A stretch of DNA of 5,125 nt from Candidatus Iainarchaeum sp. (GTDB taxonomy: Archaea; Iainarchaeota; Iainarchaeia; Iainarchaeales; 0-14-0-20-30-16), in assembly GCA_028710695.1 (NCBI GenBank), contig JAQTTP010000016.1, positions 1 to 5,125 of the forward strand, read 5' to 3'. Positions 1 to 5,125 of this stretch are shown here, piece by piece. The notes under the pieces were generated by a model. The model made no database searches. It saw only the letters and a program-made list of their open reading frames with translations, and was not told the DNA's origin. Position 1 is the first letter of the stretch. Every line of letters starts with the position of its first letter. A program made the translations under genes and the position numbers.

Positions 1-133
1 ATCCGCTCGATTTAAAAGCATCGCTCAGTATTTTCTCCAGAGTACCTACGCCCAAACCTGCCGCACCGCCAATCAAAATAGAGATACTAACTTGATGAGT
101 ACTTTCTGAAAAATCTTTTTCAAATCTTTTCAT
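1..133 (-). CDS. 5' end of an unidentified ORF running off the left edge (44 codons visible, with a hydrophobic Gly/Ala-rich segment)
   Basis: ATG at 133..131. AAGGA at 145..141 lies 7 nt upstream, and the start is 18 nt after the sodB stop codon. My translation is open to position 1: MKRFEKDFSESTHQVSISILIGGAAGLGVGTLEKILSDAFKSSG. It is absent from the supplied track, presumably because it is truncated. No family recognised. Confidence 0.4.
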   Translation of the reverse strand, partial: MKRFEKDFSESTHQVSISILIGGAAGLGVGTLEKILSDAFKSSG

Positions 134-151
134 AAAGATATCCTTGTTTGA

Positions 152-832
152 CTACGACTGCGTACGCTCGTATTCTTGCATAACATCAACATAGTCACAC
201 ACTTCATTGTTATCATTGCATGGCTGCGCGTAGCCGGAGATTGGGTCTTGTTGTGCATCAGCAAGATTATCTGAGACAAATCTCCAGTTGATAAGTCTCC
301 ACCAGCCTTCAAGATAATCAGCTCTACCGTTACGATAATCTATGTAATATGCATGTTCCCAGACATCACAGGTAAGTAATGGTATTTCATCATGACATAG
401 CGGATTATCTGCGTTTGAGTACTCTGCGATGGCAAGATTTCCATCTTTATTCAGAACAAGCCAGACCCATCCTGAGCCAAAAAGAGCCATTGCTTTGGCT
501 AAAAAAAGTTTTTTAAACTCCTCCTCTGAACCAAACGCAGCAATAATCCTATCAGAAAGTTCTACCGAACAAGTCGTAGAATTCCCGGAGAGTCCATTCC
601 AGTAGAAGTCATGGTTAAATACCTGTGCAGAATTATTGAAGATAGCGCCAGCGGAGTTTTTGATGATATATTCTAGCTCTTTATCTTCAAACTCACTGCC
701 TTGGATAAGTGTATTGAGTTTATTGACATAAGTCGCATGATGTTTACCATGATGGTAAGCTATTGTTTCAGACGAAATATAAGGTTCTAATGCTCTATCT
801 TTAAAAGGCAGCGACATGAGTTCAAGTTTCAT
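152..832 (-). CDS. sodB: Fe-type superoxide dismutase (Fe/Mn SOD family) with a ~34-aa C-terminal extension
   Basis: 226-aa ORF. It is collinear with E. coli SodB as I remember it: PFKDRALEPYIS, YHHGKHHATYV, AQVFNHDFYW, FGSGWVWL, DVWEHAYYIDYRN. Gln in the AQxFNH context and FGSGW rather than QGSGW indicate the Fe type. AAGGAG at 844..839 lies 6 nt before the ATG. Confidence 0.95.
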   Translation of the reverse strand: MKLELMSLPFKDRALEPYISSETIAYHHGKHHATYVNKLNTLIQGSEFEDKELEYIIKNSAGAIFNNSAQVFNHDFYWNGLSGNSTTCSVELSDRIIAAFGSEEEFKKLFLAKAMALFGSGWVWLVLNKDGNLAIAEYSNADNPLCHDEIPLLTCDVWEHAYYIDYRNGRADYLEGWWRLINWRFVSDNLADAQQDPISGYAQPCNDNNEVCDYVDVMQEYERTQS

Positions 833-900
833 TTTCTACTCCTTGATCTATAAGTTAATATTATCATCGTAACGGAAAAAAAATTATGTTTTACAAAAAG
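833..900 (-). promoter_or_regulatory. sodB ribosome-binding site and probable promoter region
   Basis: SD AAGGAG at 844..839. There are -10-like hexamers GATAAT (865..860) and TAATAT (863..858) on the minus strand, with a T-rich tract upstream (879..872 on the minus strand). There is no convincing -35. The exact TSS cannot be called. Confidence 0.3.
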
Positions 901-943
901 AATTGAACTAATTGGAGAAAGTTATATTTTCATAACGCTAAGG

Positions 944-969
944 ATGTCGTCCTGAGGGAAGGACGACAT
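944..969 (-). terminator. Perfect 10-bp GC-rich hairpin between nifK and sodB (possible terminator, attenuator or RNA-stability element)
   Basis: ATGTCGTCCT (944..953), loop GAGGGA, AGGACGACAT (960..969). It starts 27 nt after the nifK stop codon. On the minus-strand transcript the stem is not followed by a U tract. The T4 run lies on the plus-strand side, so a canonical intrinsic terminator is uncertain. Confidence 0.4.
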
Positions 970-995
970 TTTGGGAATAAATGAAGGGTTGATAA

Positions 996-1535
996 TTAAC
1001 GAATAAGGTCGAAAAAGTAGTCAGTTGAAGCGATACCTTTTGTATCTTCATCAAGCTTGTCAAGAACTTTGTTCGTGATCCAAGTAAGCAAATTGAGCGC
1101 TCCATCGTATCCGCTAATACTATAACGGTGTAGGTGGTGACGGTCAAATATTGGGAAACCAATATAGATTAATGGAATATTTGTATCTCTCATGAGCTCT
1201 TTACCGTAGCTGTTTCCAATCATGAAATCAACCGGTTGTGTAAAAAGTAATGAACGCATGTGCCATAAATCTTTACCAGCCCATACATGACAATCAGAGC
1301 ACGCAGGAGAAGTATCAAGCATTGCTCTCATCTCATCTTCCCAACCACGAGCTGGATTGTTACAAAGTACATGAGTCGGTTCAGCACCCATCTCTAGTAA
1401 GAATGAAACCATTCCTATTAAAAAGTCAGGGTCACCCCAGATTGCAAACTTTTTACCATGCATATATGGATAAGAATCTTGCATAGCATCTACTAAACGA
1501 CCACGTTCAGTTTTAAGTTTTTGTGGAACTTCAAC
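996..1535 (-). pseudogene. nifK: 3' fragment (C-terminal ~180 codons) of the nitrogenase MoFe protein beta chain gene; the 5' two thirds are missing from this locus
   Basis: Hallmark NifK C-terminal blocks are present: ERGRLVDAMQDS, HGKKFAIWGDPDF, DLWHMRSLLF, DFMIGNSYGK, GFPIFDRHHLHR, and the terminal DYFFDLIR. The frame stays open and NifK-like for 17 codons upstream of the track Met (VEVPQKLKTERGRLVDA, 1485..1535) and then hits TAA at 1538..1536. There is no SD before the internal Met. A vnfK/anfK paralogue cannot be fully excluded by eye. Confidence 0.85.
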
Positions 1536-1549
1536 TTAACTGTAAACAA

Positions 1550-2005
1550 CTATAATTTAATATACATCCATTCATGCTTCTCAGTAGCATAAGAAAATCC
1601 CATAGACTCATAAAAATCAACTAGTATTTTGTTCTCTTTCCCACCATCTGGATACAAAATAAGATAACTCACCCCAATATGTTCTCTGACTTCGTAGAAT
1701 TTTGATACTGAATATTCAAGTAGCAACTGAGAAACTTTGGAGTTATCAAGATGTTCATATGTGTTTGACCTGTAATCATTATTTACAAAAAGTAAATCTA
1801 TCAAGACCACAGGTTTTTTACTCTTTCCTATCATCACTTCAGAAGCTGATAAGGCTATGTATCCGAGTATTCCTCTGAGGATTGAATTTGTATCTCTGAT
1901 GGAGTAAAGTTTCGTGCTGTTATTTTGAGCCGATGATATTGCCTTGGCTAAAAGTGCTTTTTCTCTTTCTGCTTTTTTTGATGTCGCGGCTAAATTCAAC
2001 AGCAT
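1550..2005 (-). CDS. GNAT-fold acetyltransferase resembling TacT/AtaT/KacT-type toxins; probably N-terminally disrupted by a frameshift
   Basis: 151-aa ORF. The layout parallels TacT as I remember it: ILGYIALSASEV (cf. VAGFYSLATGSV), PVVLIDLLFV (cf. PVIILARLAV), EHIGVSYLILY (cf. ENIGVRAIMVH), DFYESMGF (cf. NFYIHHGF), and a short C-terminus MYIKL (cf. LFLRL). The AcCoA-loop Gly residues are not conserved (DNSKVS where HGKGLG is expected). An overlapping ORF starting at 2069 supplies a plausible missing N-terminus (see findings). Confidence 0.7.
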   Translation of the reverse strand: MLLNLAATSKKAEREKALLAKAISSAQNNSTKLYSIRDTNSILRGILGYIALSASEVMIGKSKKPVVLIDLLFVNNDYRSNTYEHLDNSKVSQLLLEYSVSKFYEVREHIGVSYLILYPDGGKENKILVDFYESMGFSYATEKHEWMYIKL

Positions 2006-2076
2006 TTAAAAGCGACCTTTTTTCTGATTTTATTTTAGAAGAGGAGTAAGAGTTGAATTTATACGGCATCTAGAGA

Positions 2077-2226
2077 TTAAGCTGCTTCGGTAATAAACTT
2101 CTTAGCTTTTACCCTTGCTACAAGCTCTTTAGGCACCTTTGCATTAAGCATTTTTTTTGCGTCTTCACCTGTCACATGTGGCGGTGATACTTGAATTACT
2201 TTACCGTTTTCATATTTGAAAGCCAT
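2077..2226 (-). CDS. Small 49-aa hypothetical protein in the antitoxin position upstream of the GNAT gene
   Basis: My translation: MAFKYENGKVIQVSPPHVTGEDAKKMLNAKVPKELVARVKAKKFITEAA, stop TAA at 2079..2077. AAAGGGG lies 6 nt before the ATG (2238..2232). An extended -10 (TGcTAAAAT) lies ~35 nt upstream. It is below the size cutoff of the supplied track. No family recognised with confidence. Confidence 0.45.
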   Translation of the reverse strand: MAFKYENGKVIQVSPPHVTGEDAKKMLNAKVPKELVARVKAKKFITEAA

Positions 2227-2260
2227 TGTAACCCCTTTATTGCAGTTATTTTATGGGTGT

Positions 2261-2294
2261 ATTTTAGCATAATTTGGTTTATGGCGAATTCGCC
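2261..2294 (-). promoter_or_regulatory. Putative promoter of the small ORF/GNAT pair, with a 12-bp perfect palindrome over the -35 position
   Basis: On the minus strand, TG-C-TAAAAT (2269..2261) is an extended -10. GGCGAATTCGCC (2283..2294) is a perfect palindrome 16-18 bp upstream. It overlaps a weak -35 (TTCGCC). Confidence 0.35.
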
Positions 2295-2472
2295 TATTTT
2301 ATAAAATGGTGCTGACACATTTTTCTTATTTATAACGAATGTTAAGAAACCACAGATGGTTGCGTATGTGGTTCCTATTTGAGATGATTGAGATATTTGC
2401 TTGCAGGTTAAAATAAAGTGATGGAGACTTAAGCATCAAGGAAAAGGAAATTCCAAATACCTGACCCCCCTT

Positions 2473-2496
2473 TACTTCTTGTTTTGTACTTCTTGT
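2473..2496. repeat. Two copies of a 10-bp direct repeat TACTTCTTGT with 14-bp periodicity just downstream of the TPR gene stop
   Basis: TACTTCTTGT occurs at 2473..2482 and 2487..2496, immediately after a C6 run (2465..2470). The repeat itself is certain. Its function is unknown. Confidence 0.5.
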
Positions 2497-2514
2497 GTAA
2501 AGTTAAGTTGGAAG

Positions 2515-3858
2515 TTAGTTAATAACTTTAATTATCTTCGCCATAATTTTTCCATTGTTTTGATTTTCTTTAAGTTTAAAAAGCACTTGAGTATTTATGT
2601 TTATATTTTCTATAAAATTTATTATGCTTGGTACGCTAAAATAATAATCTTTATTATTAGAATGCATCCATCCATCTTTGCCTCTTTCATTGTCATTAAT
2701 GATTTTTGTAATAGTTCCAGTGAGTACTTCATTAGTAGTTGTTGGAGTTTTATTTGGAACAAAAGAATGCCAATAAGTTTTTAATTCACCTAACAATTTA
2801 GTCATGTCAACCTCTTCATTTTCTACTACAAGAGAGTGCAATTCGCATAGGTCATTATTTGTCACTTGCCAACCATTTTGCTCTTTAATAGTCTTGACTA
2901 ATAAAAGATGTTTGTAAGATAAATCATTTTGTTTTTTAGTTTTTAAAATTTTGGCAATTAAAGAGATAATACCTATTTTCATCTCTATTTTTCCAAAACC
3001 ATTCATGTTAATAGCTTCGATAGCATACTCAAATGATTTTTGAATATCACCTATCTCAAAATAAAGTTCAGCTAATTCTTTTTTGATAAACCACTCTTTT
3101 TTCTTTCTAAATATTTTTTCCAAACCATCTATTGCACCTTGCATGTCTCCAAGAGCTTTTTTAGATAATGCAATTCTTCTTGCAAACCATAAATCATTAT
3201 TGTAATGGAAATTATGAAGTTTTTCTATAGCATTACTTGAAATTTCAAAACACTCTTGATATTTTCCTAGTTCAAGTAATGCTTTTGTTTGATGTTGATA
3301 CCAGTTTTCCTCATCTGATGCCATCTCCTTATTTTGACCTTTTATCTCAATAGTTGAAACATCTTTACTCAATAAATCAGGATTAAAGATATTGCAAAAC
3401 TCATGAATAAATTTATAATCTTGATTTACTTTCTCTTTTTCTGATTTAAAAGTTAGCCTAAAAATATTTGAGATGATGCTATAAGAGTATTGAGATTTTT
3501 TGCCTATTAAGAGAGGGATAATGGTTTGTACGAGGCTTAAAAATTGGTATTTATTGAACTGTTTACTTTGAACATCCTCTTTAAGTTTATCAAATATTGC
3601 CCACCCATAAGCATTAAGAACCATCTCATGAGTATTTTCATTCATCACAATATTGTACATTTCCAAAAATTTCGGTACTGCTTGAGTATTATTGGTTTTT
3701 CTAAGGGCTGTTAAAATAATCGAAACTAAATAGTTATGTTGCGTTATTTGCATCTGGGTAAATGGCTCTTTATTTATTTTAAAAAATTGCAATATCTCTC
3801 CATATTTTTCTGCTTTTTTGAGTGTAACCATCTCTTGTACAAAATTTTGAAAATCCAT
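2515..3858 (-). CDS. TPR-like helical repeat protein with a C-terminal cold-shock/S1-like (OB-fold) domain
   Basis: 447-aa ORF. The start lies 9 nt after the helicase stop, with AGAGGA in the gap. Three TPR-like units span about aa 186-285: WYQHQTKALLELGKYQECFEISSNAIEKL, LWFARRIALSKKALGDMQGAIDGLEKIF, EWFIKKELAELYFEIGDIQKSFEYAIEAI. The C-terminal ~70 aa follow the CspA pattern: GTITKI..GKDGWMHS..DYYFSV..NTQVLFKLKE..GKIMAKIIKV. Confidence 0.8.
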   Translation of the reverse strand: MDFQNFVQEMVTLKKAEKYGEILQFFKINKEPFTQMQITQHNYLVSIILTALRKTNNTQAVPKFLEMYNIVMNENTHEMVLNAYGWAIFDKLKEDVQSKQFNKYQFLSLVQTIIPLLIGKKSQYSYSIISNIFRLTFKSEKEKVNQDYKFIHEFCNIFNPDLLSKDVSTIEIKGQNKEMASDEENWYQHQTKALLELGKYQECFEISSNAIEKLHNFHYNNDLWFARRIALSKKALGDMQGAIDGLEKIFRKKKEWFIKKELAELYFEIGDIQKSFEYAIEAINMNGFGKIEMKIGIISLIAKILKTKKQNDLSYKHLLLVKTIKEQNGWQVTNNDLCELHSLVVENEEVDMTKLLGELKTYWHSFVPNKTPTTTNEVLTGTITKIINDNERGKDGWMHSNNKDYYFSVPSIINFIENININTQVLFKLKENQNNGKIMAKIIKVIN

Positions 3859-3867
3859 AATTCCTCT

Positions 3868-5125
3868 TTATTTCAATAGTGAATATATCTGTTGAACTAG
3901 TGGAAAAGAACTGTCTTTTTGATCTTGAAATTTTGTAAATTGACTCTTTCCATTATAATAAAAATCAAAAATAGCAACATCTCCATTATTCTCAAAAGTA
4001 TATCTCTCCATATAGTTTAGATGTATGATATGGTTGATTTTTATACCATGTGGATGTAATTTGTTTTGTATAAGGTGAAAATATTCTTTTAAAAAAGGTT
4101 GATTAAATTCAAACTCTTTTGGTGTATGACTTTTTTCTAAAAAAATTATTTTATGTACTAAATTTTCTAAGATATTTTTCAGCAATTTAGAGAGTATATT
4201 TGTTTCTATTGGGTCTATTTTTGTAATGATATTATTTCCATTATAATTGATTTTGAGTCTTGAAATTTCACTATTATATTCAAAAGTATAAAGTTCATGA
4301 TAAGAGTTATGCTCAACATTTATAATATTGATACCATTGGCAGTAGCAATACTGTGAATTTCTTGATAGATACTTTCCAAAAATGTGTGTGCAATTTTTT
4401 TAGTAATAATATCCACTTTATTTTCAGTATGAGTTTGGTGTGTATTTTGAGTTGGTGTTGATATTGCTGTACCAACATTTAACTTAAATACGGGTTCGTT
4501 CATAAGATAAAGATTCTGTGTTGTTCTTGTCATGGCAGTATAGAGCCATCTAAAATAGCTTTGAGATAAATAGTTTTGTGGAGTTGCACAATTGAGCAAT
4601 ACATTTTCCCATTCACTTCCTTGTGCTTTATGACAAGTAATTGCATATCCAAATTTAATTTTTAGTCCATTAAAATAAGGGTCGCTTTTAAGAGCATCTT
4701 TAAACTCTTTTGTATGCGGTCTTAACTCTGGATTTCTATATACAAAATCTACATATAATGCTTTATTTTCATCAGAACTCAAGCTTGGCTTATCAGAGTA
4801 AAGAAGATTTTCTATAATTTTGCAACGAATTAAATGGGGAATACCTTTTAAATCTTCAAACAATACTACCACATCTCTAAAAGATAATAGAACATCAATT
4901 ATTTTGCTTTTTGTTACGATGTGTCTTTGTTCTTTGACATATGAAACCTCTTTAACGATACCAAAATCACCATTAGATAAAAAAATTTCGTTTTGTGAGC
5001 TATTAGAGGCTACCATAATTTTATCTTCGGGCATAATATTGTCTTGATTGTTCGGAAAAAAATGTTCTCTGATTTGATCATTATACTCTTTGACAGAATT
5101 GTTTGAATAAGCTATGACAATATTA
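3868..5125 (-). CDS. SF1 helicase (RecD/Dda/Pif1-like, UvrD_C_2-type C-terminal core), 5'-partial, with a ~210-aa C-terminal extension containing a tandem domain duplication
   Basis: The frame stays open upstream of the track Met (5034) to the window edge: NIVIAYSNNSVKEYNDQIREHFFPNNQDNIMPEDKIMV. This resembles the 'vlA.tN.av..lN..iR ... GD.vm' region of this family. It is followed by an SH3-like NGDFGIVKEV, motif V-like FGYAITCHKAQGSEWENVLL (around 4609..4650) and motif VI-like YTAMTRTTQNLYL (4504..4542). The Walker A/B motifs lie outside the window. Confidence 0.85.
   Translation of the reverse strand, partial: NIVIAYSNNSVKEYNDQIREHFFPNNQDNIMPEDKIMVASNSSQNEIFLSNGDFGIVKEVSYVKEQRHIVTKSKIIDVLLSFRDVVVLFEDLKGIPHLIRCKIIENLLYSDKPSLSSDENKALYVDFVYRNPELRPHTKEFKDALKSDPYFNGLKIKFGYAITCHKAQGSEWENVLLNCATPQNYLSQSYFRWLYTAMTRTTQNLYLMNEPVFKLNVGTAISTPTQNTHQTHTENKVDIITKKIAHTFLESIYQEIHSIATANGINIINVEHNSYHELYTFEYNSEISRLKINYNGNNIITKIDPIETNILSKLLKNILENLVHKIIFLEKSHTPKEFEFNQPFLKEYFHLIQNKLHPHGIKINHIIHLNYMERYTFENNGDVAIFDFYYNGKSQFTKFQDQKDSSFPLVQQIYSLLK

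What the first reader, a model, noticed from the sequence alone, without database searches (positions are those of the whole stretch)
996..1552. nifK is cut off mid-gene: an intact C-terminal third abuts an unrelated AT-rich gene block within about 14 bp
The minus-strand frame reads as bona fide NifK from VEVPQKLKTERGRLVDA (1535) to the canonical C-terminus DLIR (999), about 180 codons with no frameshift or internal stop. Upstream of 1535 there is a TAA (1538..1536), and 11 nt later comes the stop codon of a co-oriented GNAT gene (1552..1550). The N-terminal ~2/3 of NifK, which in known NifK carries the P-cluster Cys ligands, therefore cannot be at this locus. An undecayed fragment with a sharp junction fits a recent or reversible interruption better than long-term decay. 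Precedents for elements that interrupt genes and are excised on demand include the Anabaena nifD, fdxN and hupL elements, the B. subtilis skin element in sigK, and prophage switches in comK or mutL. Here the interrupting block would carry helicase, TPR and toxin-like cargo rather than an obvious prophage. Alternatives are a dead-end insertion or deletion that killed nitrogen fixation, or an assembly or construct chimera.
Basis: partly seen in the sequence, partly recalled or inferred. Interest (0 to 1): 0.8.

Follow-up and report, generated by a model that had tools for sequence, protein, structure and literature searches.

The report
Displaced nifK tail beside defence island
The last third of the nitrogenase gene nifK really does sit directly against foreign anti-phage genes, but it looks like the leftover scar that recombination leaves when defence islands are pasted in next to nifK, not a gene waiting to be repaired by excision.

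Summary
Window 996-1535 (minus strand) is the undecayed last 179 codons of NifK. It is joined within 0-2 nt to the 13-nt tail of a small toxin-antitoxin module.

The window is a complete 5,125-bp metagenomic contig. It comes from a Sulfurimonas-type bacterium but was mis-binned into an archaeal MAG, so it cannot be extended.

The foreign block has two parts:
- a TOTE/PDC-M16 defence system (helicase-TBP plus TPR-OB);
- a 49-aa gene plus a GNAT tRNA-acetylating-toxin-like gene, which is frameshifted here.

No recombinase is visible. In relatives the same module lies a few kb downstream of an intact nifK and is followed by another partial nifK copy (from codon 31, or from codon 470). Other Sulfurimonadaceae also carry intact nifK, an integrase-less defence island and a nifK fragment. 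Sister strains have the empty site, nifK directly followed by sodB.

The fragment is itself mosaic. Positions 1152-1535 are foreign (84% to sister strains) and 996-1133 are resident-type (99-100%).

[quoted passage not shown] An intact nifK probably lies upstream, off the contig. Regulated excision is not supported.

The parts
1..133 (-). First 44 codons of a 2-oxoacid:ferredoxin oxidoreductase (POR) gene, cut by the contig end. Native backbone.
   Evidence: Translation. In sister loci L088, L089 and L090 the gene after sodB is a 570-aa PF01558/PF01855 protein. DNA is 97-100% identical to those loci.
152..832 (-). sodB, an intact Fe superoxide dismutase. It is the native downstream neighbour of nifK in this lineage.
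   Evidence: Pfam Sod_Fe_N and Sod_Fe_C; NCBIfam NF007832 at E 9e-75. The nifK-sodB adjacency is found in L014, L089, L091, L011, L012, L023, L008 and L029.
944..969 (.). Conserved hairpin (ATGTCGTCC...GGACGACAT) in the nifK-sodB spacer.
   Evidence: Read from the sequence. The same hairpin follows nifK in L089 and L014 and follows the nifK fragment of L003.
996..1535 (-). The nifK 3' fragment: codons about 336-514 plus the stop, with an open frame. It lacks the N-terminal domains that hold the P-cluster cysteines.
   Evidence: tblastn with the L040 NifK aligns residues 336-514 at 89%.
996..1133 (-). Resident ('A-type') part of the fragment. It is 99-100% identical to sister strains that carry an intact nifK.
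   Evidence: Segment identities. Mismatch positions against L089, L091, L020, L057 and L088.
1134..1151 (.). Interval that contains the switch from resident-type to foreign-type nifK sequence. This is a homologous crossover at about codon 465-470.
   Evidence: Sliding identity against L089 falls from 49-50/50 to 40-44/50. The first B-type site is 1152 and the last A-type sites are 1116 and 1122. The max-chi-square breakpoint is at index 381.
1152..1535 (-). Foreign ('B-type') part of the fragment. It is 84% identical to sister strains and at best 91% identical to any locus (L004).
   Evidence: Codon differences against L004 are 25 synonymous and 5 non-synonymous.
1535..1549 (-). Illegitimate junction (between 1537 and 1535) plus the 13-nt module tail TTGTTTACAGTTA (1549..1537). 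The tail contains an imperfect 9-nt similarity to nifK codons 332-335: TTACAGTTA against TTACAGGTA.
   Evidence: Alignments. The tail TTGYTTACAGYT occurs only three times in 1.39 Mb of fetched loci, each time right after this toxin gene and each time followed by different DNA.
1550..2069 (-). GNAT-fold, tRNA-acetylating-toxin-like gene (172 aa in relatives), frameshifted here. The 151-aa ORF runs 1550-2005. The original start was at 2069.
   Evidence: A +1 A in the poly-A run at 1973-1979, compared with L083 and L084; the independent Logan contig L087 has the same extra base. The family has a conserved length of 172 aa. AF2 model and Foldseek result.
2077..2226 (-). 49-aa gene always paired with the toxin gene. 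It is a putative antitoxin with no detectable family.
   Evidence: Identical protein in L083, L084, L085, L086 and L087. It is always placed 3-8 nt upstream of the toxin gene. There are no Pfam or PADLOC hits.
2227..2332 (-). Upstream region of the module, including the palindrome GGCGAATTCGCC (2283-2294). It marks the left limit of module homology: 2280 in L083 and L084, 2332 in L040.
   Evidence: BLAST limits. The palindrome is read from the sequence.
2515..3858 (-). TOTE component: a TPR protein fused to a cold-shock/OB domain (447 aa).
   Evidence: PADLOC PDLC01170, 'TPR ... fused to cold shock-like domain (OB-fold)', E 2.3e-53. In relatives the helicase-TBP gene is followed by a TPR-DUF7017-S1CSD-TOTE gene.
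3868..5125 (-). TOTE component: the C-terminal 418 aa of an SF1 helicase with two TBP-TOTE domains. The gene runs off the contig, and about 280 aa are missing.
   Evidence: Pfam PF22721 at E 5.5e-37 and UvrD_C_2 at E 4e-17. PADLOC PDC-M16A at E 6.9e-139. Full-length relatives are about 700 aa and at most 55% identical.

Best explanation
The nifK piece is the right-hand border scar of a horizontally acquired defence island. It is not one half of a split gene that is waiting to be rejoined.

Shown:
- The 3' flank of nifK is a hot spot for integrase-less defence and toxin-antitoxin islands in Sulfurimonadaceae.
- In several lineages the island lies between an intact nifK and a second, partial nifK copy in the same orientation.

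Inferred for this contig:
- DNA from another Sulfurimonas lineage ('B') carried [TOTE helicase-TBP, TPR-OB, 49-aa gene, GNAT toxin, 13-nt tail] already joined illegitimately to nifK codon ~336.
- That DNA entered a resident ('A'-type) chromosome by recombination, probably after natural transformation.
- The right-hand crossover was homologous and fell inside nifK at codon ~465-470 (window 1134-1151).
- This leaves foreign nifK sequence at 1152-1535 and resident sequence from 1133 through sodB.

[quoted passage not shown] In those processes one end is anchored by nifK homology and the other is joined at a few bases of microhomology. Both processes leave a complete nifK upstream of the island. 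I therefore expect an intact, possibly hybrid, nifK beyond the helicase gene, off this contig.

The fragment itself has no function and will decay, as it has in relatives.
For: Junction anatomy. nifK homology starts at 1532-1535. The preceding 13 nt are the module's own tail, shared with L084 and L040, where they are followed by different DNA. Only a 9-nt imperfect microhomology is present.

Same module with an intact nifK in relatives.
- L083 (=L027) and L085: nifK (intact 514 aa in L083; only its last 42 nt lie on the L085 contig), then a Septu-like PtuA/PtuB pair, then the 49-aa gene, then the 172-aa toxin, then a decayed nifK piece from codon 31.
- L040: intact nifK, about 1.7 kb, the 49-aa gene, a different TA pair, the same tail, then nifK codons 31-94 (E 7e-14).
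- The L094-L101 family: the module is followed by a nifK spacer and hairpin and then nifK codons 470-514.

Other islands with the same layout.
- L003: intact nifK, then 8.4 kb (type III R-M plus three TA pairs, no integrase), then nifK codons 425-471 fused to the last four codons.
- L010: intact nifK with its hairpin, then a second copy of codons 468-514 from a different allele.

Empty sites.
- L089 and L091 carry nifK directly followed by sodB, and are 97-100% identical to window 1-1133.
- L026 has nifK, 128 nt, then a conserved 117-aa gene. L043, L050, L041, L040 and L083 have inserts of 1.2-5.2 kb at that same spot.

Mosaic fragment. Identity to the A lineage is 99-100% over 996-1133 and 84% over 1152-1535, where the best match anywhere is 91%. 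Mosaic nifK alleles occur in other genome pairs too.

No decay. 25 synonymous against 5 non-synonymous codon differences and no indels.

No mobility gene in the visible island. The island is AT-rich.

Literature. Insertions of defence (R-M) genes with long target duplications (up to ~420 bp), without mobility genes, are prominent in naturally competent epsilon-proteobacteria (PMC2853133). The HFIR anchor model and orphaned 3' fragments are described in PMC5361080.
Against: - The key prediction, an intact nifK upstream of the helicase gene, cannot be checked. The contig ends at 5125, and no other assembly of this strain covers the region.
- The L094 family shows that this architecture can end with no intact nifK nearby.
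- Plain HFIR into an A-type recipient would give an entirely A-type fragment. The observed B/A mosaic needs a two-step history, or a Campbell-type single crossover of a circular or duplicated unit.
- Three different right-hand partners diverge at the same nucleotide (±1) after the tail. That hints at a defined element terminus and an unknown enzyme rather than random illegitimate joins.
- The junction is documented by a single assembly. The Logan unitigs of run SRR22315508 match 69-1157 and 1794-3400 but none spans 1157-1794.
Confidence: 0.55

Rival explanations
1. Dead-end truncation. The island allele replaced or deleted nifH, nifD and the first ~335 codons of nifK. This strain has lost nitrogen fixation at this locus, and the fragment is a very young pseudogene.
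For: - Nothing upstream of codon 336 is present in the 3.6 kb to the right.
- The L094-L101 family carries the same module with only nifK remnants and no intact nifK within 4 kb upstream.
- L014 may have a split nifK.
- Import of a deletion allele by two flanking homologous crossovers would give the same right-hand mosaic.
Against: - In four other lineages with a partial nifK copy downstream of nifK (L083, L040, L003, L010), the upstream nifK is intact.
- All close sister strains keep nifDK-sodB intact.
- No relative has the module upstream of the nif operon, which a simple deletion model would need.
Confidence: 0.25
2. Assembly or binning artefact. The contig is a chimera, and the nifK/toxin junction does not exist in any cell.
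For: - It is a short (5.1 kb) metagenomic contig placed in the wrong bin: an archaeal 'Candidatus ainarchaeum' MAG, although every gene is Sulfurimonas-like.
- Several strains with about 200 nt of identical nifK 3' sequence co-occur. Contigs of the Sandtown MAGs and the Logan unitigs break inside the nifK 3' end (L002 ends at 1157; L020, L057 and L088 end or start at 1006-1132).
- No second assembly spanning 1157-1794 was found.
Against: - The two partners share at most a 6-9-nt similarity at the junction. That is far below any assembler k-mer, so a de Bruijn mis-join cannot create it.
- The same kind of module|nifK join exists independently in L040, L083 and the L094 family, in unrelated samples.
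- The B-to-A switch requires real k-mers that link B-type position 1152 to A-type sequence, and the Logan unitig L002 contains them.
- An inter-strain mis-join could only affect which sodB allele follows. It would not affect the truncation.
Confidence: 0.07
3. The AT-rich block is a nifK-interrupting element that a site-specific recombinase excises on demand (for example under nitrogen limitation) to restore nifK, as with the Anabaena nifD/fdxN/hupL elements or the B. subtilis skin element.
For: - The fragment is undecayed and in frame.
- The junction is sharp.
- The left part of the island is unseen and could hold a recombinase.
- In a distant relative (L105/L106) the same toxin-antitoxin module sits next to a tyrosine integrase in a tRNA-integrated element.
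- The three contexts diverge at exactly the same nucleotide after the tail.
Against: - No recombinase or Xis gene in 3.6 kb.
- Related nifK-flank islands seen whole (L083, L003) contain none.
- In relatives the nifK upstream of the island is already complete, so nothing needs restoring.
- The nifK pieces after the module start at three different codons (31, 336, 470) and are decaying. That is the opposite of a conserved excision site.
- The fragment is a B/A mosaic, which points to homologous recombination.
Confidence: 0.04

Closest known systems
Insertion with long target duplication of restriction-modification genes (Nobusato et al. 2000, cited in Furuta, Abe & Kobayashi 2010, PMC2853133)
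   Same: - Defence genes without any transposase or integrase are inserted next to or into a host gene.
- The insert is flanked by direct repeats of the target that are tens to hundreds of bp long.
- An empty site exists in sister strains.
- The phenomenon is prominent in naturally competent epsilon-proteobacteria.
In relatives L083, L040 and L003, an intact nifK and a partial nifK copy flank the island in just this way. L010 has the two copies with only a terminator-bearing spacer between them.
   Different: - Only the downstream repeat copy is visible in this window.
- The repeat would be at least 537 bp, longer than the ~420 bp listed in that paper.
- The cargo is TOTE plus a GNAT TA module rather than an R-M system.
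- The visible copy is a mosaic of two lineages.
Homology-facilitated illegitimate recombination during natural transformation (de Vries & Wackernagel 2002; Prudhomme et al. 2002; Meier & Wackernagel 2003; as cited in PMC5361080)
   Same: One end of the incoming DNA is anchored by homology (here nifK). The other end is joined at a few bases of microhomology close to the anchor. Recipient sequence downstream of the joint survives as an orphan piece. The same logic has been proposed for the strings of orphaned 3' regions in Rhs, CDI and T6SS loci.
   Different: - Competence of these Sulfurimonas strains and the process itself have not been shown.
- A single HFIR event would give an all-recipient fragment, whereas this one is mosaic.
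- The donor-side endpoint is suspiciously constant.
Developmentally excised interrupting elements (Anabaena nifD, fdxN and hupL elements; B. subtilis skin in sigK)
   Same: A nitrogen-fixation gene is cut mid-ORF by kilobases of unrelated DNA, and the visible piece is undecayed.
   Different: - Those elements encode their own recombinase (XisA, XisF, XisC, SpoIVCA).
- They are bounded by short direct repeats.
- They leave both gene halves in place.
Here no recombinase is seen, the joint is illegitimate, and in relatives the gene is whole upstream of the island.
Genomic islands integrated at the 3' end of a tRNA or protein gene, which leave a displaced 3' fragment at the far att site
   Same: The layout is a complete target gene at one end of the island and a partial 3' copy at the other. 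Repeated use of one locus gives tandem remnants, as in L094.
   Different: Those islands use an integrase and a fixed att core. Here the partial copies start at different codons (31, 336, 425, 460, 468-470), and no integrase is present in the nifK-flank islands examined.
[quoted passage not shown] 2022, as cited in PMC12458937); PADLOC candidate system PDC-M16
   Same: The window has the two-gene core: an SF1 helicase with two TBP-TOTE domains, followed by a TPR protein with a cold-shock/OB domain. Gene order is the same as in L102 and L103.
   Different: The TPR-OB protein is short (447 aa against 773 aa). The proteins are at most 55% identical to any known homologue. Anti-phage activity is untested.
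GNAT/RHH type II toxin-antitoxin systems (TacAT, AtaRT, KacAT, GmvAT)
   Same: The 172-aa protein has the fold of the tRNA-acetylating GNAT toxins. It follows a small co-transcribed gene and lies on mobile or defence islands.
   Different: The partner is only 49 aa and has no detectable RHH/DUF1778 similarity. Sequence identity to solved toxins is 11-17%. The copy in the window is frameshifted.

Membership tests
NifK (nitrogenase MoFe protein beta chain, TIGR01286) | Sequence match to the equivalog model over its full length (~516 aa) and above the curated cut-off | tested here: not met
   Only model positions 338-516 are matched. The score is 276.7 bits against a cut-off of 427.3. This is a genuine NifK C-terminal domain but not a complete NifK.
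NifK (nitrogenase MoFe protein beta chain, TIGR01286) | The N-terminal domains with the P-cluster cysteine ligands (Cys70, Cys95 and Cys153 in Azotobacter numbering; established knowledge) | tested here: not met
   The fragment starts at about residue 336. The motifs PAKACQPLG, HGSHGCVAY and STTCMAEVIGDD seen in intact relatives are absent from every frame of the window.
Developmentally excised gene-interrupting element (Anabaena nifD-element / skin type) | An element-encoded site-specific recombinase | tested here: inconclusive
   None among the four genes in the visible 3.6 kb. The rest of the island is off the contig. Related nifK-flank islands seen whole (L083, L003) have none.
Developmentally excised gene-interrupting element (Anabaena nifD-element / skin type) | Both halves of the interrupted gene flank the element in the same orientation, with a short direct repeat at each junction | not testable with these tools
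   The contig ends at 5125, inside the island. No other assembly of the strain was found.
Developmentally excised gene-interrupting element (Anabaena nifD-element / skin type) | A conserved insertion point, with the gene non-functional until excision | tested here: not met
   In relatives with the same module, nifK is intact upstream. The nifK pieces after the module start at codons 31, 336 or 470 and are decaying.
Insertion with long target duplication (Kobayashi group) | Inserted defence genes, under 20 kb, with no transposase, integrase or prophage | tested here: met
   The visible genes are TOTE helicase-TBP, TPR-OB, the 49-aa gene and the GNAT toxin, and none is a mobility gene. This holds for the visible part only.
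Insertion with long target duplication (Kobayashi group) | Direct repeats of the target sequence longer than 30 bp on both sides of the insert | not testable with these tools
   Only the downstream copy (537 bp) is on the contig. The feature is met in relatives: L083, L040, L003 and L010 each have an intact nifK plus a partial copy in the same orientation.
Insertion with long target duplication (Kobayashi group) | An empty site with a single copy of the target in a closely related genome | tested here: met
   L089 and L091 have nifK (514 aa) followed by sodB and are 97-100% identical to window 1-1133. L026 is the empty site for the L083-type locus.
TOTE conflict system | TPR, OB (cold-shock), TBP-like and effector domains encoded together | tested here: met
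   PF22721 TBP-TOTE in two stretches at E 5.5e-37, plus helicase domains. PADLOC PDLC01170 'TPR ... cold shock-like OB' at E 2.3e-53 and PDC-M16A at E 6.9e-139. The gene order matches L102 and L103. Function is not tested.
GNAT-type toxin-antitoxin module (TacAT/AtaRT/KacAT) | A toxin with the GNAT fold most similar to tRNA-acetylating toxins | tested here: met
   AF2 pLDDT 91, pTM 0.87. The top 24 Foldseek PDB hits are GmvT, TacT, AtaT and KacT (E 7.5e-8 to 6e-6, TM 0.63-0.76).
GNAT-type toxin-antitoxin module (TacAT/AtaRT/KacAT) | An upstream RHH/DUF1778 antitoxin, and an intact toxin ORF | tested here: not met
   The 49-aa partner has no Pfam or PADLOC hit. The toxin ORF in the window carries a +1 frameshift in the A7 run at 1973-1979.

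The most novel reading that the evidence does not exclude
The 49-aa/GNAT module, with its constant 12-13-nt tail (TTGYTTACAGYT), marks the defined terminus of an uncharacterised, integrase-less mobile unit. That unit carries interchangeable defence cargo (TOTE, Septu-like, other TA pairs) and homes repeatedly into nifK.

In the extreme version, the unit interrupts nifK at codon 336 in this strain and can be removed precisely, making nitrogen fixation conditional on island excision, as in heterocystous cyanobacteria but in a Campylobacterota chemolithotroph.
Probability: 0.05. Interest if true: 0.8.

Novelty: new member of a known kind. Interest (0 to 1): 0.3.

Why it matters
If the reading is right, this contig is a fresh snapshot of how integrase-less defence islands spread between Sulfurimonas strains. 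They ride on homology to a highly conserved housekeeping-like gene (nifK) and leave partial gene copies as scars.

That matters in three practical ways.
- Annotation: a nifK fragment in a MAG is not evidence that nitrogen fixation was lost, or that it is regulated.
- Defence-island biology: the nifK 3' flank is a usable landmark for finding new systems in Campylobacterota.
- MAG quality control: this is a bacterial contig sitting in a DPANN archaeal bin.

It does not open a new mechanism. The closest precedents are long target duplication in Helicobacter and HFIR.

Tried and rejected
Attempts to extend the contig all failed.
- Exact-protein look-ups of the TPR protein, the 162-aa nifK ORF, the 151-aa toxin and the partial helicase found no other contig.
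- A metagenome scan with the TPR protein found nothing.
- A scan with a B-type-specific nifK 26-mer found nothing.
- The genome scan found no genome with more than 96% NifK identity.

A protein search with the NifK fragment returned only short partial proteins. The many 186-188-aa 'NifK' entries on long contigs looked like recurrent truncations. The one I opened (L104) is a nifK split by a 1-nt frameshift in a 66% GC assembly, with a spurious antisense ORF. I rejected this as an artefact.

I considered that nifK DNA extends to 1545 with a 2-nt insertion, as MAFFT and BLAST suggested. I rejected this because 1537-1549 is shared with L084 and L040, where no nifK codon-332 sequence follows.

I considered that L094 'dupA' preserves a decayed copy of the window-type junction. 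The only support is an 11-nt match (E about 1), so I dropped it.

I considered a site-specific core at nifK codons 468-472, because four breakpoints lie within 15 nt: the window switch, the starts of the L010 and L094 duplicates, and the L003 deletion. Recombination breakpoints in other genome pairs are scattered, and position 1133 proved to be a variant also present in an A-lineage genome (L057), not a B marker. I leave this as an unexplained coincidence.

Other negative results:
- The integron attC, IS200/IS605 (TTAC target) and Xer/dif-module ideas for the tail: no supporting structure or gene was found.
- The toxin family is absent from IMG/VR viral contigs.
- Rfam found nothing credible in the window.
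- The promoter and terminator scans were at or below the chance level.
Full report
WHAT IS IN THE WINDOW

All genes are on the minus strand. In nifK orientation, from right to left in window coordinates, they are:
- The C-terminal 418 aa of an SF1 helicase with two TBP-TOTE domains (3868-5125, running off the end). Evidence: Pfam PF22721 E 5.5e-37, UvrD_C_2 E 4e-17, PADLOC PDC-M16A E 6.9e-139.
- A 447-aa TPR protein (2515-3858) matching PADLOC PDLC01170, 'TPR repeats ... fused to cold shock-like domain (OB-fold)', E 2.3e-53.
- A 49-aa gene (2077-2226).
- A 151-aa ORF (1550-2005).
- The nifK piece (996-1535).
- sodB (152-832).
- The first 44 codons of a 2-oxoacid:ferredoxin oxidoreductase gene (1-133).

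[quoted passage not shown] 2022. Relatives have the same two-gene order. GC content is 21-33% over 2500-5100, against 37-43% in nifK and sodB.

CHECK OF THE OBSERVATION

The frame from 1535 to 999 reads VEVPQKLKTERGRLVDA...DYFFDLIR and then stops. It has 179 codons with no interruption. It matches:
- TIGR01286 nifK positions 338-516 of 516 (E 3e-82);
- PF00148 positions 246-398 of 399 (E 1.8e-48);
- NifK of about 80 Sulfurimonadaceae genomes at 88-96% protein identity.

The N-terminal two thirds are absent from all six frames. In intact relatives that part carries the cysteine motifs of the P-cluster ligands (ligand identity from established knowledge of NifK).

SOURCE OF THE CONTIG

- The helicase fragment is NCBI protein MDD4984101.1, annotated 'partial', from a MAG labelled 'Candidatus ainarchaeum sp.'. 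Its only contig is 5,125 bp long. The window is therefore the entire contig.
- Every gene is Sulfurimonas-like. sodB is identical to a JGI and a Logan contig and 97% identical in DNA to Sulfurimonas MAGs. The contig is therefore mis-binned.
- Two Logan unitigs from run SRR22315508 are 100% identical to window 69-1157 and 1794-3400. The strain exists in that sample, but no retrievable contig spans 1157-1794.

ANATOMY OF THE JUNCTION

- Aligned with intact nifK genes, certain homology begins at GAAGTTCC (1532 downward) and plausibly at GTT (1535). The allele in L020 also has Val at that position.
- The 13 nt between the toxin stop codon and the nifK piece (TTGTTTACAGTTA, 1549-1537) are not nifK. 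The same tail follows the same gene in L084, where no nifK is nearby and homology covers window 1537-2280 at 95.6%. As TTGCTTACAGCT it also follows the gene in L040.
- In 1.39 Mb of fetched loci the motif TTGYTTACAGYT occurs only three times. Each time it comes right after this gene and is followed by different DNA.
- The tail happens to resemble nifK codons 332-335 (TTACAGTTA against TTACAGGTA). The join therefore looks like an illegitimate, microhomology-assisted joint located between 1537 and 1535.
- Nothing resembling an att repeat is present. The partners share far too little sequence for a de Bruijn mis-assembly.

THE NEIGHBOURING MODULE

- The 151-aa ORF is a frameshifted copy of a conserved 172-aa protein. 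The window has A7 where L083 and L084 have A6 (1973-1979). The Logan unitig L087 shows the same A7.
- Sequence searches give no family.
- An AlphaFold model built on 24 homologues (pLDDT 91, pTM 0.87) has as top PDB matches the tRNA-acetylating GNAT toxins GmvT, TacT, AtaT and KacT (E 7.5e-8, TM 0.64-0.76).
- The 49-aa gene always precedes it by 3-8 nt and is the presumed antitoxin. It has no detectable RHH/DUF1778 similarity.
- More distant copies of the pair sit next to a tyrosine integrase beside a tRNA 3' fragment and inovirus-like genes (L105 and L106), or in front of a type IIG restriction-modification gene (L108). The pair is therefore mobile-island cargo.

THE COMPARATIVE PATTERN THAT DECIDES THE READING

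Loci that carry the same module:
- L083 (=L027) and L085: nifK (an intact 514-aa gene preceded by nifH and nifD in L083; only its last 42 nt are on the L085 contig), then a Septu-like PtuA/PtuB pair, the 49-aa gene and the 172-aa toxin. Directly after the stop comes a decayed nifK piece that starts at codon ~31 (GGMG.INP...).
- L040: intact nifK, about 1.7 kb of small ORFs, the 49-aa gene and a RelE/Phd-like pair that has replaced most of the toxin gene. The same tail follows, then nifK codons 31-94 (tblastn E 7e-14).
- The L094-L101 family: the module is followed by a nifK-type post-stop spacer and hairpin, then nifK codons 470-514. L094 holds a further remnant (codons 460-485 and 496-514) upstream. 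No intact nifK lies within 4 kb.

Loci without the module that show the same layout:
- L003: intact nifK, then 8.4 kb holding a type III R-M system, three TA pairs and ORF6N/RhuM-like genes but no integrase, then nifK codons 425-471 fused to the last four codons.
- L010: intact nifK plus hairpin, followed immediately by a second, divergent copy of codons 468-514.

Empty sites exist:
- L089 and L091 have nifD, nifK (514 aa), sodB and POR. They are 97-100% identical to window 1-1133.
- L026 has only 128 nt between nifK and a conserved 117-aa gene. L043, L050, L041, L040 and L083 have 1.2-5.2 kb at that spot.

The nifK 3' flank is therefore a hot spot for integrase-less defence and TA islands in this family. 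Partial nifK copies in the same orientation are their recurrent by-product.

THE FRAGMENT IS A MOSAIC

- Against the sister lineage A (L089, L091, L020, L057, L088), the window is 99-100% identical over 996-1133. From 1152 onward it is only about 84% identical.
- The best match to 1152-1535 anywhere is 91% (L004). The switch therefore lies in 1134-1151, at nifK codon ~465-470.
- The foreign part shows 25 synonymous against 5 non-synonymous codon differences from L004 and no indels. It was under purifying selection until very recently.
- Abrupt mosaic breakpoints occur in other genome pairs too, for example L091 against L014. A homologous crossover is thus an ordinary explanation.
- The Logan unitig L002 carries the B-type base at 1152 joined to A-type sequence. 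The switch is therefore not the product of one assembler's path choice. What an inter-strain mis-join could still affect is only which sodB allele follows the ~200 nt that the strains share.

MECHANISM

Shown:
- an illegitimate joint at the end of a TA module;
- a homologous crossover inside nifK;
- the absence of mobility genes in the visible part;
- empty sites in sister strains;
- the 'intact nifK, island, partial nifK' layout in four other lineages.

Inferred:
- The island, already joined to nifK codon 336 in a donor lineage B, was imported into an A-type chromosome by recombination, probably after natural transformation.
- The original joint arose by 'insertion with long target duplication'. 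That process is described for defence genes without mobility genes, with repeats up to ~420 bp, mostly in naturally competent bacteria and prominently in epsilon-proteobacteria (PMC2853133).
- An equivalent origin is homology-facilitated illegitimate recombination, in which conserved sequence anchors the incoming DNA and the other end joins illegitimately, leaving orphaned 3' pieces (PMC5361080 and references there).
- A Campbell-type single crossover of a circular or tandemly duplicated [nifK 336-514 + island] unit would give the same product and would directly explain the mosaic.

All these routes leave a complete nifK upstream of the island. That is my prediction for the DNA beyond position 5125. 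I put this reading at about 0.55.

RIVALS

- Dead-end loss of nifHD and the 5' part of nifK (0.25). The L094 family shows that the architecture can end that way, and nothing in the contig excludes it.
- An artefactual junction (0.07). This is unlikely for the k-mer reason above and because analogous joints exist in unrelated samples, but only one assembly documents this one.
No recombinase is visible, there is no conserved insertion point, nifK is intact in relatives, and the duplicates are decaying. It cannot be excluded, because the left part of the island is unseen.

WHAT REMAINS UNEXPLAINED

- Three different right-hand partners (nifK codon 31 in L040, nifK codon 336 here, unrelated DNA in L084) diverge at the same nucleotide (±1) after the 12-13-nt tail. 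This would fit a defined element terminus better than random illegitimate joins.
- Four breakpoints fall within nifK codons 468-472: the window's switch, the L010 and L094 duplicate starts, and the L003 deletion. Breakpoints in other genome pairs are scattered.

VERDICT

The attractive 'gene interrupted by an excisable element' reading is not supported. This is most likely a new example, in Sulfurimonas and involving a TOTE defence system and a GNAT toxin module, of a known kind of recombination scar at a defence-island hot spot.

Noticed in passing
whole window (1-5125): The contig is deposited in a MAG labelled 'Candidatus ainarchaeum sp.' (a DPANN archaeon; proteins MDD4984098-101, locus tags PHH82_0467x). 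All its genes are Sulfurimonas-type, and its DNA is 97-100% identical to Sulfurimonas MAGs and metagenome contigs. It is a binning contaminant.
   Followed up: yes
window 1973-1979: The GNAT toxin gene has an A7 run where relatives have A6. This shifts the frame after ~21 codons, giving a 151-aa ORF instead of 172 aa. The same extra base is in an independent Logan unitig (L087). It is either an inactivating mutation or a slippage-prone tract.
   Followed up: partly
window 1537-1549; L084 1158-1169; L040 5602-5613: The 12-13-nt tail TTGYTTACAGYT after the toxin stop codon is followed by three unrelated sequences that diverge at the same nucleotide. This could be a defined terminus of a mobile unit. 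No enzyme or matching repeat at the other end was found.
   Followed up: partly
window 1134-1151; L010 10585-10600; L094 4895-4905; L003 19100-19110: Four independent breakpoints fall within nifK codons ~465-472, in the sequence GACCGTCACCAYTTACACCGTTAT: the mosaic switch, two duplicate starts and one internal deletion. This is either a recombination hot spot or coincidence.
   Followed up: partly
L094 1856-2216 and 4902-5181: This locus carries two nifK 3' remnants, each with a terminator, plus a repeated ~95-nt segment. They bracket a ParE TA pair, RhuM and the 49-aa/GNAT module. It looks like a tandem record of successive insertions in a lineage with no intact nifK nearby.
   Followed up: partly
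L083 6046-9761 (= L027 11108-14823; L085 608-4323): A Septu-like pair occupies the position that TOTE occupies in the window, between nifK and the 49-aa/GNAT module. It consists of a 984-aa AAA_15/AAA_21 ATPase with PtuA/AriA hits and a 254-aa PtuB/HNH-like protein.
   Followed up: partly
L105 180-1533 and 5045-7506: In a more distant lineage the 49-aa/GNAT pair lies directly after a tyrosine integrase, next to a tRNA 3' fragment and an IS30 remnant. An AAA_14 ATPase and inovirus-like genes (Phage_GPA, Zot) follow.
   Followed up: no
L014 1874-3405: The nifK of Sulfurimonas sp. GWF2_37_8 is split into two overlapping ORFs (114 aa and 464 aa). This is a frameshift between codons ~52 and 107. 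It could be a sequencing error or a pseudogene.
   Followed up: no
L104 1262-2789 (proteins P0156, P0159, P0166, P0193 and others): Public protein sets hold many 186-188-aa 'NifK' entries that start at the conserved Met of ...FVMKLSELTG.... The one examined is a nifK broken by a 1-nt frameshift in a 66% GC assembly, with a spurious 327-aa antisense ORF. This is an annotation artefact, not a recurrent truncation.
   Followed up: yes
L020 / L088 (MAG STC_122), L057 (STC_53), L002: Contigs of several MAGs whose contig names carry the label 'Sandtown', and the Logan unitigs, end or start inside the last ~160 nt of nifK (window-equivalent 1006-1157). That fits several paths converging on one shared nifK tail in those communities.
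   Followed up: partly
window 2283-2294: A perfect 12-nt palindrome, GGCGAATTCGCC, lies upstream of the 49-aa gene. It may be an operator of the module. It is retained in L040 and L086 but lies outside the homology shared with L083 and L084.
   Followed up: no
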